Assembly (NCBI GenBank): GCA_025497365.1 | Contig: GCA_025497365.1_4955.1 | Length of the DNA: 57,325 nucleotides | Source: a phage | Direction: 5' to 3' (one strand) | In this document: positions 39,001 through 45,000 of the stretch, piece by piece | Numbering within the stretch: position 1 is the stretch's first letter | How the letters are laid out: every line of letters begins with the position of its first letter | Program-made: the position numbers

Positions 39001-42000
39001 CTGATTTACCAGGCCGTGGATCGTACACTTGATGATACAGTGCTGTTAACCTATTTCGGTTTCTGTATAGGTCAGTATGTTGGTGCTAAAAAAATCGCTG
39101 TAGATAAACAACGAGGTACGCCAAATGACAACCCGTAGTGTGTTAATCACCGTTGTTGCAACCGTTCTTGTGTTAAGCATAGGTGCGTATACGTGTTACC
39201 ACGCTGGGTATAAAGCACGGGTAAATGAAGAACATCAGGAACGTTTAGACGATGCACAACGGGAACAACAACGGTTAAAGGCACAACAGGAACTGGCAGA
39301 TGATGTACTTCGTGGTTTAGCTGACTGGTCGCAGAATACTAAAATCGTGGAAATACGACATGAAAAGACTAATACTGTTTTTCGTAACGAGTGTCTTACT
39401 TCTGAATATCAACGCTTGTACAACGAACGAGTTACCGAAGCAGAAGCCCGTTTATCAGGCCGCATTAGTTCAGAAGTGTCAGACCGAAAACCTTCCACGG
39501 CTGAACGGTCTGACAGGAAGTGATTCAACAGATGTTAATGACCAGTGGTTAGATATTTATTTCAAATGTGCAACTATTCACAACGCATTAGTAGACAGTC
39601 TTCAGTAAATCTTCAACCGATACTTCAATCCACGATGCGGGAACCGGATATTCAGTCCGGTACATGAACAAGGATGTTCCTATCAACCCGTGTGGATCTG
39701 TTTTAATCCCTCGCATGTTCAACAATGGAAAAAACTGTTCGCGTGTTTGTGGCAACCGTGCAAAGCGTCCTGTCGGGCGTTTAGCAGGATCCATAGGGTT
39801 GAATTCAACGATTGTGGACATAGTGAGTTACTCCAGTGAATAGATTGTAATTTCGCAATCAATGTTGTTCAATTTTTCATAAATCAAAGGTCTGACTACT
39901 GACCATGATAAACCACCATTTGAACAACCTAATCGTGGTAATGAAACTGAACGTATTTTAAAGTGTCTGATGACTTTTATAAGATCGTCCAAACCATATT
40001 CAATCCATTGTAATTGTGAAGGATTACACCAATGCTCTTTAGTTGGAAAATTAATAATTATCTGATTGTTTTCAGATGTGACAAACATTTTTCCAACTTT
40101 TACATGGTGTTGTTCACACGCTTTTCGGTACTGTTTAAAATTGTCAGGAAAGGTTCTTTTAAACGCTAAAGCAATACCTTTACCCATTACACCAACGCAA
40201 TTCACAGTGTTTACTAGAGCATGTGAATTGCTTTTAAGAAGGTCCCCCGTGACTTCTATTACTGACATAACAATAACTCCTGTACGCTTGTCGTTTTATT
40301 TTCTGATAGTCGGAAACTTTTACAGATCTCGTTTTACATTCACCGATACGATATGGGTCGAAAACAAACATCACCTGTGAACGGTCATTTCCTCCTGCTG
40401 GTAACCTGGTGTCAGGATCTACAAACGCTATACGACCTTTAAACACCCATAGTTCCGAACAATGTGTCAGTGCTTTGTGAAACCAGTCTGCAGACGTCAT
40501 AGCGTTCACGAGTAATAACGAACCAGTTCCTTGATGAACAGTGGTTATTATTTTATTAACCCATGGAGACGGATCGCTGTATGGTGGATTACACCAGACG
40601 AACCCACCACCATTACTTTGAACAATCGAATTCCAGTCTTTATTCAGACTATCAGTGATAAACAACGAACATTTAGCGTTAGAACCATCGGTACACACAT
40701 CAAGAACAAGTGGGAATTCACGAGAAACGTTATCAATAAAATCCCACGGTGTTTCCCAGTTGTCTTTAGCCATGTTCCGGTACGCTCTCCACGCTGTAAT
40801 AAACGGGGATACCCAGACGTTCAGCTTCTGCAATTTCCGCAATAGTCCCGGACGAACGACGATAATCAGGAAGCACCAGAACAGCGTCACAGCGGCGCAT
40901 AATTTCTAACGTGCCTGACAGGTAGTATTCAGGTTGTATATTGCGTAAACCTCCGTCAAAGTCCCACAATTCGGTGTTCTTGTGAGGGATAACAGGGAAC
41001 CACCCCGGACGTTGTAAAGCAAGTCGTTTACCTGCCTGTTCAGCGCGTGACACGTTACGGGATGTTTTAAGCGCACAGTCAGCACGATAAGGCCCGGCAA
41101 TGTAACAGAGTTTAATCATGGTTGTTTTCCTGCATCTGTATAATGAGCTATGATTTCTCAGATCTCTTGGGTCGGTGTACCCTCCGACAATAATAAAATT
41201 TTTAATCTCTTGTTTATATTTATCGGGAACGAAGTTGAAAAAGTCACGTTTAGTCTTAATTTCCCGACTGAATCTACTCATGACGATTCATTCCTTCTAA
41301 CATATCCCAGATAAGTGCAACACGACGCGGATCCGTGCTGATAGTGTGTAAAGTTTCACATCCGTAATGCCACCCCCAACGAACGGATAATTCTGACAAT
41401 AGATAACCACGGGAATTAGCCAGTTCAGCCAGTTCACCGGGTTTAAACGTCGTTGTATTAGGTTCTGTAAGAACACGAGTACCACAGATAGCGTCACTGA
41501 TGCGCCACGGTTTCATCAGGTCATCAACCTTATACCAGTTACTGATACTGATTTCAGACGTTCCCCAGCGTGCAGCCAGTTTCAGACGTTCCTGACGGGC
41601 CGGGAACATTGGCATCTGTGGTAAACGCAGTTGGATCTGTTCTGCAGGTTCAAACATGTCGTCGTCTGTTAAACGAAATTCACCACGGTCATCAATATAA
41701 AAACCACGGGAACGACCATCACGGGTGAACCCGTCAACACGGTTATAAATTTTACCGGGAGTAAAGACACCAATCGGTGAACCAGTTACAAATTTGTGTG
41801 AAGTATGCATTGTTATTGCCTCAATAAGTTTTAAATAATTCTATACGGTTTACCGAAGTGGTGCAACGAGTTTTTCAGCTTCTTTGATGTAAAAATCATA
41901 ATTGAGCGTTGCCCGGTTAAAACGTTTCATGTCGTTACACTCCGTGGTCAACCAACCTTTACACACTGACATGCGGCGTTCAGGCGCATCAGGGTTCAGT

Positions 42001-45000
42001 TTCAGTGATTTTGCCAGTGGTGGCATGACTTTTGTCAACGGCGCACCATCTGTACTGACGTAATAACGGGTAATGTTCTGAACCTGTTTATCACCCCATA
42101 GTAATTTGCTGTTACGCGGTACTTTCGTCACTAACATGAAATCGTGAATATCTTCGTGTGATGTTATAAAATCACGAATGTCTTTATTGTGTACCAGTGC
42201 TGCCTCAGCCGCTTTTGCAACAACCTGCATACTGTGGTTTTGATGCCAACCCAGATCAACACTGTGGCAATAAGCACCTTTACGTTTAACCTTCTTACCA
42301 CCTTCATAAACAGCGATGTAGTTATTTACATCGCGGATAAACATCACGTCATAAATCGCTTCTTCAAGCTGGAGTCTGGTTAATTTTTCCCACGCGTGAC
42401 GAACCTGTTCTACTTGTCCGGTAAATACTCGTGGTACGTAAACCGTAAGACCATCTGTGTTAGCCTGAATCATGGATAAACCAGGGATTTTCAGAAGTTC
42501 TTCAGCCAACATACACAAAAGTAACTGTCCGTTAATCGTAATAGCCATTGTATAAGCAGGATCGTAGAACGGGCTGTATACGTTATTACTGTCACCATAC
42601 ACACCGTTTAACGCCAGTTTTAACATTGCGTTTTCTGGTGTACCTTTCGGGTAACTGGAACGCATGTCGTAAACATTTTTATAAATAGTGCAAAATTGTT
42701 TACCCAGATGTGCCGGATAAAGTTCATTACTGATCGCAAGGTTCGGGTAAAAACTGGCAACGTCCAGATCGATGATCACATAATTTTCAGTGGACCTGAT
42801 AGTTTGAGACTCAATAGACCCGTGGATACCACCCGTACCAAAATCAAACGAGAACCCGTTAATGTCTGCGCTTAAATCTGTGAATACACCTTTTGTTTCA
42901 GTGATGACCTGTTGACGTAACCAGTTAAGAACACGATTAAATTCAGGCTGTTCAAAACGGACATAAGGGAAAATCACACTGTTCAATGCGATTGATGGTC
43001 TGTGCGTCTGTCGTGGTTTTCTGCTACCCGGTTCGAAACATTGAATACCTGATTTTTCAAGTTCCATGATGAAATAGTCTTTACCGATTTTCGTGTCATT
43101 ATGGTTCATGAAATTACGACCGTATTTAGCAGAAAGTTCACGACGAAAATCAATCAGCTTTTTACTGTGTTTATAAAACATCAAAGTCGCTTTCAAATCG
43201 TGTATCAGATATTGACGAAGCGTATCAATTTGAGAATCGGTTAAGTAAGCCCCTGGTGTAAACGGGAGGTCTTCAATGTTTTCCATTCTCATATTGAATT
43301 CAAGTGTTTTCAGACTTGTTCGTTTTGCCTGATTGTCGAAATGATGAATTTTATATAAATCAAGCTGGGGGACTATCCAGTCTTTTTCCCACACCATATG
43401 AGCAAAACGATTTTCATCACCATCGTTAATTATCGAATCACCTTTTTTGTAAATGTCTGCGTTGGTGATATACATGATGTTGTTCAAAATAGAATGCTGA
43501 ACAGGATAGTCGTAACCCAGATTGTTATAACCAACTTCTTCAGCACGATGTTCACGCAAATATTCTGTGAACAGGTAAAAAGCCTGACGATCATCGCGAC
43601 GATGTGAAATCTCAAAAATATAAGGTGTTTCAGTTAACGCGTGAATAGCACCGAACAGAAAAACATTAGGATAGTTTTCAATATCGTGAACGTAAGCATC
43701 TGACATAATAAAACCCTGATAAGTAAATGGGGCACTATGGCCCCGTTTTCAGTTATGAACGCTTATTGACCCATTCATTATATAACCGATCACTTTCTTC
43801 TTTTGTAGAAGCGTGTGCAAATCGCCACCCGTAACCGTTTTGCACTTCATACGCGAAATAAAATTTACCAAAATTTTTACGGGAAGTTCTTAAAACGCTA
43901 TTAAATCTTTTTTGAATCACTCCGTGTTTCTTTACGTATGACAATTGGTCTTCTAAAGATAATTTTTCAAACATTTCTTGTTCTTGTACAAATTGTTCTT
44001 GATTCATTTTATACCTCGTTGATAAATGGGGCACTATGGCCCCATGTCTGTTTAAAGCGGTATGTCGTCCCAGTTCCAGTAACTATCAGTAACCGTTACC
44101 GTTGAGAAAATTCGGGGCCGGGGTAGTCATTACCATATAACCGTTAGCGATCAGTTGTTCATCGTTCCAACCTTGCGCAATAAACTGTTCGTAAGTAGCA
44201 CCACCTGCTTTTTCAGTCATTACCTTCACAGGTGCTGCCGCTGGTGTAGGCGCTGCTACAGGTGCTGCCGCTGGTGTAGGCGCTGCTACAGGTGCTGCCG
44301 CTGGTGTAGGCGCTGCTACAGGTGCTGCCGCTGGTGTAGGCGCTGCCGCTGGTGTAGGCGCTGCTACAGGTGCTGCCGCTGGTGTAGGCGCTGCTACAGG
44401 TGCTGCCGCTGGTGTTACGCCGATCGGACGTGCACCTTCAGGCATTGCAGGAGCAGCACCGAACACAGAGGCAGGAGCCGGACCAGAAATGATTTCTTCA
44501 CCCGCATAAAGCAATTGCGCCATTTCCATGTTGATATACACACCAGCCTGATTACCTGTACGACCGTTTGCAACAGATGATCCGCTGATACGATAGTAAT
44601 ACCCTTTTTTCGCCAGATTTTTATCAATAACTGGCTGGTACGCTGCGTTATAAACCGGACACGCATCAATAGCCACGTTGCGTGAGAAACCAATTACCCA
44701 GTGACCAGCATAACCAGTTTTACTCGCATGTTTCGGATCGTCACCGTTAATAATTTTCCATGCGAAAGTGGGTTGTTGTGGTTCACCGTTCACATAGTGT
44801 GAGTTAGCCGCTCGCATGATGGCCTGGAACACCGCACCCAGTTCACCTTGTTCTTCCCACCAGTTCGCCGCTGTTTTAGGAAACGCCAGACCAACCCACC
44901 AGTTATGTTTTTCAGGTGCTAACGGTTTATTTTCGTGGTCATGAGTGTTGATATCGAAAAAAGAACCGCCAACCAGACGACCAACCGGAGTTACAAAAGA

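What the first reader, a model, noticed from the sequence alone, without database searches (positions are those of the whole stretch)
41850..43706. Unusually small family-B-like DNA polymerase without recognisable exonuclease motifs
The 618-aa product carries motif A-like, B-like and C-like polymerase signatures in the right order (C-like as TDG rather than the classical DTD) but has no obvious 3'-5' exonuclease Exo I-III motifs, and is far shorter than typical replicative family-B enzymes. It is co-transcribed with the nuclease and ssDNA-binding-like genes and preceded by a conserved stem-loop.
Basis: partly seen in the sequence, partly recalled or inferred. Interest (0 to 1): 0.5.

Follow-up and report, generated by a model that had tools for sequence, protein, structure and literature searches.

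The report
Compact phage family-B DNA polymerase

Summary
The 618-codon ORF at 41850-43706 is real but lies on the minus strand. The window is a Sashavirus-like E. coli siphophage genome. The protein is 99.4% identical to the annotated DNA polymerase of Escherichia phage PDP46, and its phage 9NA counterpart is already listed among family-B polymerases (PolB) in published surveys.

The family-B call holds. Motif A (DLDVASFYPN), motif B (KLALNGVYG), motif C (NTDG) and KxY (KRKGAY) are in order and invariant in 151 relatives. An AlphaFold model (pLDDT 95) matches archaeal, bacterial, eukaryotic and T4-type PolBs.

The small size is real and normal for this clade (median 658 aa). It comes mainly from the missing N-terminal segment, since Exo I starts at residue 8, and from short fingers. 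crAss-like and Seuratvirus phage PolBs share the NTDG motif.

The upstream stem-loop is real, conserved and duplicated here around an extra 84-codon ORF.

Verdict: an ordinary, already catalogued gene. No member appears to have been studied biochemically.

The parts
41850..43706 (-). PolB gene: 618 aa plus stop codon
   Evidence: ORF. PHROG 1252 at E = 3e-215. 99.4% identical to the PDP46 DNA polymerase. AF2 model pLDDT 95.3, with PolB fold matches.
43122..43706 (-). 3'-5' exonuclease (DEDDy, DnaQ-like) domain, residues 1 to about 195
43677..43685 (-). Exo I motif D8-I-E10
   Evidence: D8 and E10 present in 146 of 146 aligned residues. Coordinates checked.
43506..43526 (-). Exo II motif N61-N62-L-G-Y-D66-Y67
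   Evidence: D66 present in 148 of 148. Aligned to RB69 GWNVESFD222.
43197..43211 (-). Exo III motif Y166-L-I-H-D170
   Evidence: Y166 and D170 each present in 149 of 150. Aligned to RB69 Y323/D327.
42741..42770 (-). Polymerase motif A, DLD315VASFY320PN
   Evidence: D315 and Y320 invariant in 151 of 151. Aligned to the 9N/Tgo motif DFRSLYPS.
42594..42620 (-). Polymerase motif B, K363LALN367GVYG371 (fingers helix)
   Evidence: K363 and G371 invariant; N367 present in 150 of 151. Aligned to archaeal KILANSFYG.
42450..42467 (-). Polymerase motif C, QAN416-T-D418-G
   Evidence: N416, T417, D418 and G419 invariant in 151 of 151. Aligned to archaeal YADTDG. The same NTDG occurs in the crAss-like cr113_1 and CAjan PolBs.
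42270..42287 (-). KxY-type motif, K474-R-K476-G-A-Y479
   Evidence: K474 present in 146 of 146; K476 in 120 of 146; Y or F at position 479 in 145 of 146.
43724..43744 (-). Stem-loop GGGGC-CATAGT-GCCCC plus ATTTA, 18 nt upstream of the pol start codon
   Evidence: Exact 21-nt repeat. Terminator-like by pattern scan. RNA fold -12.5 kcal/mol, z = -2.0. Conserved in Sasha, PDP46, 9NA and BU9. Annotated as a terminator in the Sasha record.
44023..44043 (-). Second copy of the same stem-loop, between the SSB gene and the extra small ORF
43753..44007 (-). Extra 84-codon ORF inserted between the SSB and pol genes, bracketed by the two stem-loop copies; absent from Sasha, PDP46, 9NA and BU9
   Evidence: No PHROG hit. 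Only 33-34% identical tblastn matches, in 5 E. coli phages.
44086..45015 (-). Gp2.5/Enc34-type ssDNA-binding and annealing protein with a tandem-repeat Ala/Pro linker
   Evidence: Pfam PF10991. PHROG 7011 at E = 9e-103. Repeats.
45031..46176 (-). DUF2800 PD-(D/E)XK exonuclease
   Evidence: Pfam PF10926 at E = 9.5e-58 and PF12705. PHROG 69.
46176..46919 (-). First gene of the leftward array, function unknown
   Evidence: PHROG 27827, unknown function. No Pfam hit.
47090..48751 (+). Divergently transcribed SF2 (DEAD/ResIII) helicase
   Evidence: Pfam ResIII, Helicase_C and DEAD.
48793..49284 (+). Endonuclease; its counterpart is annotated 'exonuclease' in Sasha, 9NA and PDP46
   Evidence: PHROG 93 'endonuclease'. 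Annotations.
49458..51812 (+). Primase-polymerase (NrS-1-like) fused to a D5-type helicase
   Evidence: Pfam PF22763, PF08706 and PF19263. PHROG 1829 'DNA primase' at E = 1e-229.

Best explanation
The ORF encodes the phage's own replicative DNA polymerase. It is a compact, DNA/RNA-primed family-B enzyme with an intact N-terminal DEDDy 3'-5' proofreading exonuclease (residues 1 to about 195) fused to a palm-fingers-thumb polymerase.

Inferred mechanism, from conserved residues and from knowledge of PolBs such as RB69 gp43 and the Thermococcus enzymes:
- Two-metal nucleotidyl transfer uses D315 (motif A) and D418 (motif C).
- K363, N367 and Y370 on the fingers helix bind the incoming dNTP.
- Invariant Y320 acts as the sugar steric gate, so the enzyme should be dNTP-specific.
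- K474/K476/Y479 hold the primer terminus.
- Mismatched 3' ends move to the exonuclease site formed by D8, E10, D66 and D170, with Y166.

Why it is small:
- The N-terminal segment that makes up most of the PolB N-terminal domain is missing.
- The fingers are short.
- Many relatives carry insertions after positions 275, 539 and 575 that this protein lacks.

Likely working context: a T7-like minimal replisome encoded by its neighbours (PrimPol-D5 helicase for unwinding and priming, Gp2.5-type SSB, DUF2800 nuclease, SF2 helicase and an endonuclease for recombination and fork processing).

Shown here: the ORF, homology, motif conservation, fold and gene context. Inferred: enzyme activities, partners and co-transcription.
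For: Identity and family:
- ORF on the minus strand.
- 99.4% identical to the annotated DNA polymerase of phage PDP46. 969 phage records carry homologues, mostly annotated 'DNA polymerase'.
- PHROG 1252 at E = 3e-215.
- A profile of 40 relatives hits archaeal PolBs at E about 1e-6 across motifs A, B, C and the thumb.

Fold:
- AF2 model pLDDT 95.3, pTM 0.90.
- Foldseek PDB top 50 are all PolBs, E about 1e-15.

Exonuclease:
- D8, E10, D66, Y166 and D170 are kept in at least 146 of 151 relatives.
- hhalign places D66 on RB69 D222 and Y166/D170 on RB69 Y323/D327.
- 16 of 40 relatives hit Pfam PF10108.

Polymerase: all catalytic residues are invariant in 151 of 151.

Context:
- It sits inside a replication module.
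- No other polymerase was seen among the ORFs scanned. That scan was not exhaustive, and the PrimPol-D5 protein at 49458-51812 has a polymerase-type domain of its own.

Literature:
- The phage 9NA homologue is listed in the 'PolBmain' cluster of Kazlauskas et al. 2020, PMC7544198.
- Sashavirus and Nonanavirus are treated as PolB-encoding in Yutin et al. 2024, PMC11348598.
Against: - No biochemical data exist for this protein. I found none for any close relative in the library.
- Neither Pfam model of the family (PF00136, PF03104) reaches threshold on this protein.
- The first Asp of the classical DTD in motif C is Asn, and the Arg of the TxxGR-type motif is Gln, in every member. Kinetics or metal use may therefore differ from textbook PolBs.
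- Residue-level superposition of the exonuclease site could not be inspected, because model coordinates are not exposed.
- Co-transcription is only inferred. The promoter-like sites are no more frequent than in shuffled sequence, and terminator-like stem-loops lie between the SSB and pol genes.
Confidence: 0.9

Rival explanations
1. One reading: an exonuclease-deficient minimal PolB that depends on a separate nuclease partner (for example the neighbouring DUF2800 or endonuclease genes) for proofreading.
For: - No Pfam exonuclease hit on this particular protein.
- Nuclease genes lie nearby.
Against: - All five DEDDy residues are present and conserved family-wide.
- They align with RB69 Exo II and Exo III.
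- The domain has the DnaQ-like fold.
- PF10108 hits in 16 of 40 relatives.
- DUF2800 is a PD-(D/E)XK recombination-type nuclease, not a proofreading DEDD enzyme.
Confidence: 0.03
2. A protein-primed, phi29-type PolB. It would have similar size, with Exo I at the extreme N-terminus and nearly identical Exo I-II-III spacing.
For: - Exo landmarks: D8/D66/D170 here against D9/D63/D166 in the phi29 record numbering.
- No N-terminal segment in either protein.
- No sliding clamp was seen among the ORFs scanned.
Against: - There is no room for the TPR1 and TPR2 insertions. Motif A to B is 48 aa here against 134 in phi29, and B to C is 55 against 75.
- hhalign against phi29 is not significant.
- The phage encodes a PrimPol-D5 primase-helicase.
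- The 9NA homologue clusters in PolBmain, not in the pPolB cluster.
Confidence: 0.03
3. A catalytically altered PolB: either inactivated or repair-only like archaeal PolB2, or primer-independent like piPolB. The basis is that the first Asp of motif C is replaced.
For: - N416 replaces the first Asp in all 151 members.
- PolB2 and piPolB also lack that Asp (Kazlauskas et al. 2020, as read).
Against: - Every other catalytic and dNTP-binding residue is invariant, which argues for strong purifying selection on activity.
- It lies in the replication module, and no other dedicated replicative polymerase was seen among the ORFs scanned. The PrimPol-D5 protein does carry a polymerase-type domain.
- piPolB shows the first Asp is dispensable for efficient synthesis, so loss of activity does not follow.
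- A dedicated primase gene makes de novo initiation by the polymerase unnecessary.
Confidence: 0.04

Closest known systems
DNA polymerases of Sashavirus and Nonanavirus phages (Escherichia phage PDP46, vB_EcoS_PJ16, Salmonella phages Sasha gp62 and 9NA gp65)
   Same: - The same gene: 99.4% amino-acid identity to PDP46, with 94-97% nucleotide identity to Sasha and PJ16 over the region.
- The same neighbours: DUF2800 nuclease, Gp2.5-like SSB, pol, and a divergent helicase and primase.
   Different: - Here an extra 84-codon ORF and a second copy of the stem-loop lie between the SSB and pol genes.
- The source record of the identical protein calls it 'hypothetical protein'.
crAss-like PolB group (EpsilonN-like clade of Kazlauskas et al. 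2020) and the Seuratvirus (CAjan) PolB
   Same: - Full-length homology at 29-31% identity.
- Same compact architecture with Exo I at the N-terminus.
- Same GGIH(G/S), DxDVxSxYP, KLxxNG, INGQ, NTDG and KxKG motifs.
- BFVD Foldseek hits to crAss-like phage polymerases.
- The paper notes that this group differs profoundly in motif C and KxY.
   Different: - Low sequence identity and different phage lineages.
- Group membership was not tested here by phylogeny.
Primer-dependent PolBs with solved structures (Thermococcus 9N/Tgo/KOD, E. coli Pol II, RB69 gp43, Pol epsilon N-terminal half)
   Same: - Same fold and domain order (exonuclease, palm, fingers, palm, thumb).
- Same Exo I-III, A, B, C and KxY motifs.
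   Different: - 10-17% identity.
- About 105-135 N-terminal residues are missing: Exo I is at residue 8 here, against 114 in RB69 and about 141 in Tgo (established knowledge).
- Short fingers: motif A to B is 48 aa against 149 in RB69.
- About 60 extra residues lie between Exo III and motif A.
- Asn replaces the first Asp of motif C.
phi29 DNA polymerase (protein-primed PolB)
   Same: - Comparable size (572-575 aa).
- Exonuclease domain at the very N-terminus with almost the same motif spacing.
   Different: - No room for the TPR1 and TPR2 insertions, and no terminal protein was identified.

Membership tests
Family B DNA polymerase | Exo I (DxE), Exo II (NxxxF/YD) and Exo III (YxxxD) motifs on a DnaQ-like fold | tested here: met
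   - D8-I-E10, N62-LGY-D66 and Y166-LIH-D170 are conserved in at least 146 of 151 relatives.
- They are in register with RB69 D222 and Y323/D327.
Family B DNA polymerase | Motif A, DxxSLYPS, with the catalytic Asp and the steric-gate Tyr | tested here: met
   D315-VAS-F-Y320-P-N. D315 and Y320 are invariant. HMMER aligns the motif to 9N LDFRSLYPS.
Family B DNA polymerase | Motif B, KxxxNSxYG | tested here: met
   K363-LAL-N367-G-V-Y-G371. K and G are invariant; N is present in 150 of 151.
Family B DNA polymerase | Motif C, DTD(S/G), with two Asp residues | tested here: inconclusive
   - The motif reads N416-T-D418-G. The second (metal-binding) Asp is invariant, but the first is Asn in all 151 members.
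- The literature records active PolBs (piPolB) that lack the first Asp.
Family B DNA polymerase | KxY motif after motif C | tested here: met
   K474-R-K476-G-A-Y479.
Family B DNA polymerase | Overall PolB fold | tested here: met
Family B DNA polymerase | N-terminal domain preceding the exonuclease domain (one of the three common PolB domains per Kazlauskas et al. 2020) | tested here: not met
   - Exo I begins at residue 8.
- In 150 relatives the offset is 0-17 residues in most.
- RB69 has 113 residues before Exo I.
- A post-exonuclease remnant of that domain may persist in residues about 182-278. This could not be checked without coordinates.
Family B DNA polymerase | Pfam PF00136 / PF03104 at gathering threshold | tested here: not met
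   - No Pfam hit for this protein even at E <= 1.
- Among 40 relatives, only 2 weak PF00136 hits and 1 weak PF03104 hit, but 16 hit PF10108.
Protein-primed PolB (phi29 type) | TPR1 insertion between motifs A and B, and TPR2 insertion between B and C | tested here: not met
   Motif A to B is 48 aa and B to C is 55 aa here. In phi29 they are 134 and 75 aa.
Protein-primed PolB (phi29 type) | Terminal protein gene and inverted terminal repeats | not tested
   No terminal protein was noticed among the annotated neighbours. The genome ends were not analysed.
crAss-like PolB group (Kazlauskas et al. 2020) | Phylogenetic placement with crAss-like phage PolBs; divergent motif C and KxY | tested here: inconclusive
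   - Motif set shared with the cr113_1 PolB, including NTDG.
- 28.6% identity over the full length.
- BFVD structural neighbours include crAss-like phage polymerases.
- No tree was built.
piPolB (primer-independent PolB) | De novo, primer-independent DNA synthesis | not testable with these tools
   The only shared feature is loss of the first motif C Asp. The phage encodes its own primase.

The most novel reading that the evidence does not exclude
This phage PolB clade is very large (4850 clusters at 50% identity) and, as far as I could find, biochemically unstudied. It includes the 9NA/Sasha-like, Seuratvirus and crAss-like phage polymerases. It lacks the N-terminal segment, carries an invariant NTDG motif C and INGQ, and no sliding clamp was seen among the scanned ORFs of this genome (not an exhaustive scan). 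It may therefore work differently from textbook PolBs. Possibilities include intrinsic clamp-independent processivity or strand displacement in a T7-like replisome with a Gp2.5-type SSB, altered metal use, or tolerance of modified nucleotides.
Probability: 0.2. Interest if true: 0.4.

Novelty: already known. Interest (0 to 1): 0.1.

Why it matters
For this window it matters little. The gene is the expected replicase of a known phage genus, and the feature that made it look interesting (no proofreading domain) is not real.

Two modest points remain:
- A widespread compact PolB clade, which includes the crAss-like phage polymerases abundant in the human gut, escapes the standard Pfam PolB models. 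In bacterial assemblies it is often labelled 'hypothetical protein'.
- I found no solved structure or enzymology for any member. A compact proofreading PolB of about 70 kDa could be of practical interest.

Tried and rejected
- Pfam and NCBIfam scans of the protein gave nothing usable (only a 13.6-bit trace of Pol II).
- Single-sequence phmmer against PDB was marginal (E = 0.013). It became convincing only with a 40-sequence profile.
- hhalign against phi29 polymerase was not significant; only Exo II lined up.
- hhalign against RB69 gave E = 0.0025 at low probability (12%). I use it only for motif register.
- The first homologous-protein run returned only hits at least 99% identical, so diversity came from the representative search.
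- Rfam has no family for the stem-loop.
- The promoter scan found no more sites than in shuffled sequence, so no promoter is claimed.
- The stem-loop shows no covariation because the stem is invariant. Structure is therefore supported only by conservation and folding energy (z about -2).
- Five literature searches found no biochemical study of this clade.
- Considered and rejected: a protein-primed PolB, an inactivated PolB2-like enzyme and a piPolB-like enzyme (see rivals).

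
Full report
**Observation**

The window carries an uninterrupted 618-codon ORF at exactly 41850-43706, but on the minus strand. The plus-strand reading is full of stops. The ORF is not a chance product. It matches PHROG 1252 'DNA polymerase' at E = 3e-215 over its full length. A search of 1.84 billion cluster representatives finds 4850 related clusters at E <= 1e-3 and 2072 at E <= 1e-30.

**What the window is**

Megablast and tblastn show a Sashavirus-like siphophage of E. coli.
- The region is 94-97% identical in nucleotides to Salmonella phage Sasha, Escherichia phage vB_EcoS_PJ16 and other Sashavirus records, and about 80% identical to Salmonella phage 9NA.
- The protein is 99.4% identical to the annotated DNA polymerase of Escherichia phage PDP46.
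- A 100% identical protein sits on a 57,325-base contig of an E. coli assembly, where it is called 'hypothetical protein'. That contig has the same length as the window.

**Is it a family-B polymerase?**

Yes.
- Pfam and NCBIfam do not recognise it, and a single-sequence search of PDB sequences is marginal (E = 0.013).
- A profile of 40 relatives at about 45% identity (alignment A1) hits Thermococcus/Pyrococcus PolBs at E about 1e-6. Motifs A, B, C and the start of the thumb are in register.
- An AlphaFold2 model built on that alignment is very confident (mean pLDDT 95.3, pTM 0.90).
- Foldseek against the PDB returns only PolBs among the top 50 (E about 1e-15, probability 1.0).

The polymerase motifs are:

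| Motif | Sequence |
|---|---|
| A | D313-L-D315-V-A-S-F-Y320-P-N |
| B | K363-L-A-L-N367-G-V-Y-G371 |
| TxxG(R/Q)-type | T390-I-N-G-Q394 |
| C | N416-T-D418-G |
| KxY-type | K474-R-K-G-A-Y479 |

Coordinates were checked. In a 151-sequence family alignment, D315, Y320, K363, G371, N416, T417, D418 and G419 are invariant.

**Does it lack an exonuclease?**

- The N-terminus reads VH-D8-I-E10-NYPN (Exo I), VGY-N61-N62-LGY-D66-YPV (Exo II) and RQ-Y166-LIH-D170-L (Exo III).
- Among 151 family members, D8 and E10 are present in 146 of 146 aligned residues, D66 in 148 of 148, and Y166 and D170 in 149 of 150 each.
- hhalign of the family profile against RB69 gp43 aligns residues 37-184 with RB69 192-347. 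This places D66 on D222 and Y166/D170 on Y323/D327, which are RB69's Exo II and Exo III residues.
- The model's secondary-structure order (three strands, helix, strand, helix, then a long helix carrying YxxxD) is the DnaQ-like layout.
- 16 of 40 relatives hit Pfam PF10108, 'predicted 3'-5' exonuclease related to the exonuclease domain of PolB'.

**Why it is small**

Landmark spacing explains the size.

| Segment | This protein | RB69 gp43 | phi29 |
|---|---|---|---|
| N-terminus to Exo I | 7 | 113 | about 8 |
| Exo III to motif A | 145 | 84 | 80 |
| Motif A to motif B | 48 | 149 | 134 |
| Motif B to motif C | 55 | 63 | 75 |

- In Thermococcus enzymes about 140 residues precede Exo I (established knowledge).
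- So the N-terminal segment that forms most of the PolB N-terminal domain is absent and the fingers are short.
- Residues about 182-278 form a conserved extra region (NDTKIGK, PRQT, ETKGVF). It may or may not be a remnant of the N-terminal domain, and I could not inspect coordinates to decide.
- The size is normal for the clade: median 658 aa, with Exo I within 0-17 residues of the N-terminus in most members.
- Longer members carry insertions after positions 275, 539 and 575.

**Relation to known groups**

- The motif A-B and B-C spacings leave no room for the TPR1 and TPR2 insertions that define protein-primed PolBs. The phage also has its own primase-helicase. A phi29-type mechanism is therefore unlikely despite the similar size.
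- Kazlauskas et al. 2020 (PMC7544198) list the 633-aa phage 9NA homologue in their 'PolBmain' cluster, not in the protein-primed cluster.
- Yutin et al. 2024 (PMC11348598) treat Sashavirus and Nonanavirus as PolB-encoding phages.
- The PolBs of crAss-like phage cr113_1 and of Seuratvirus CAjan align over their full length at 29-31% identity. They share GGIH(G/S), DxDVxSxYP, KLxxNG, INGQ, NTDG and KxKG.
- BFVD structural neighbours include several crAss-like phage polymerases.
- On the Asn in motif C, the same paper notes that piPolBs lack the first Asp yet polymerise efficiently. The substitution does not imply inactivity.

**Context and the stem-loop**

- The gene lies in a leftward array: an unknown 247-aa gene, DUF2800 PD-(D/E)XK nuclease, Gp2.5/Enc34-type SSB, an 84-codon ORF, PolB, an unknown 178-aa gene, a nucleoside deoxyribosyltransferase-like gene, Dam and a Macro-domain gene.
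- It faces a rightward array: SF2 helicase, an endonuclease, a small ORF and a PrimPol-D5 primase-helicase.
- The DUF2815/Enc34 SSB family has been shown experimentally to be a T7 gp2.5-like SSB (PMC5686142).
- No sliding clamp turned up among the roughly 40 ORFs scanned. That scan was not exhaustive.
- Co-transcription is plausible from the tight same-strand packing but is not demonstrated. Promoter-like sites are no more frequent than in shuffled sequence.
- The stem-loop is real. GGGGCCATAGTGCCCCATTTA occurs exactly twice, at 43724-43744 and 44023-44043 on the minus strand, against 0 expected by chance.
- It folds at about -12 kcal/mol with z about -2, and the pattern scan flags it as terminator-like. 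The Sasha record annotates it as a terminator.
- The roughly 80-nt SSB-pol spacer that contains it differs at only a few positions among this window, Sasha, PDP46, 9NA and Klebsiella phage BU9, with one T/C change in the loop. The surrounding region is only about 80% identical to 9NA and BU9.
- In the other phages there is one copy. Here two copies bracket the extra 84-codon ORF, as if that ORF had been inserted at the stem-loop.
- A weak terminator or attenuator that lowers polymerase expression relative to the SSB is a reasonable inference, but it is untested. Rfam has no matching family.

**Verdict**

The finding describes a real gene and assigns the right enzyme family. Its claimed peculiarity, a PolB without an exonuclease, is an artefact of reading motifs by eye. 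The protein is the standard, already annotated and already catalogued replicase of Sasha/9NA-like phages.

The only residual interest is that this very large compact PolB clade appears to have no solved structure. The closest PDB sequence match is E about 1e-6. I found no published enzymology in the library.

Noticed in passing
window 43753-44007 (-), with stem-loops at 43724-43744 and 44023-44043: An extra 84-codon ORF lies between the SSB and pol genes, bracketed by two exact copies of the conserved stem-loop. Sasha, PDP46, 9NA and BU9 have one stem-loop and no such ORF. The ORF has no PHROG hit and only 33-34% identical matches, in five E. coli phages. It looks like a small gene inserted at the stem-loop.
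   Followed up: partly
window 43707-44085 (-); L001 9144-9223, L008 6363-6441, L009 5912-5990: The roughly 80-nt SSB-pol intergenic spacer differs at only a few positions across Sashavirus, 9NA and Klebsiella phage BU9, while the flanking region is only about 80% identical. This suggests a regulatory role beyond the stem-loop. No covariation was seen and there is no Rfam match.
   Followed up: partly
window 44228-44415 (-), inside the SSB gene 44086-45015: Perfect 30-nt tandem repeats encode a (PTPAAAPVAA)n Ala/Pro-rich linker before the C-terminal segment of the Gp2.5-like SSB. The Sasha record also marks a tandem repeat in its SSB gene, and SSB length differs between phages (309, 303 and 316 aa).
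   Followed up: partly
family alignment of 150 representatives; query positions 275, 539 and 575: Relatives of the polymerase carry insertions at three hot spots. The insertion after position 275 occurs in 48 of 150 members (up to 99 aa). The one after 575 occurs in 54 of 150 (up to 72 aa). The one after 539 occurs in 12 of 150. The window's enzyme is close to the minimal form. In several phages (Flavobacterium Fpv1, Cellulophaga phi14:2, Klebsiella RCIP0093) the gene appears split or interrupted.
   Followed up: no
window 42313-42334 (-), inside the pol gene: A terminator-like hairpin (GCGATGTAAATAACTACATCGC followed by T-rich sequence) lies within the coding region. The Sasha record annotates a terminator at the equivalent place. 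It is probably a chance or coding-constrained feature.
   Followed up: no
window 27632-28543 (-): A 303-aa HNH/homing-endonuclease-like ORF (PHROG 681 and 559) lies on the opposite strand inside the plus-strand tail gene cluster.
   Followed up: no
window 39828-41281 (-): Downstream of pol are three genes. The first is a nucleoside 2-deoxyribosyltransferase-like protein (DUF7768/DUF4406) whose first 44 residues match an 'anti-restriction nuclease' PHROG. The others are a Dam methylase and a Macro-domain protein. The gene content here differs from Sasha and 9NA, which carry NinX and a larger methyltransferase.
   Followed up: no
window 52117-52392 (+): A 91-aa ORF in the early/replication region matches only the N-terminal part of tail fibre and tailspike families. 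It may be a fragment or a remnant of an adaptor domain.
   Followed up: no
L005 4853-5806 (phage CAjan): In CAjan the gene directly upstream of the homologous PolB is annotated 'DNA polymerase processivity factor'. It occupies the position taken by the Gp2.5-like SSB in this window. I did not check whether the two are homologous.
   Followed up: no
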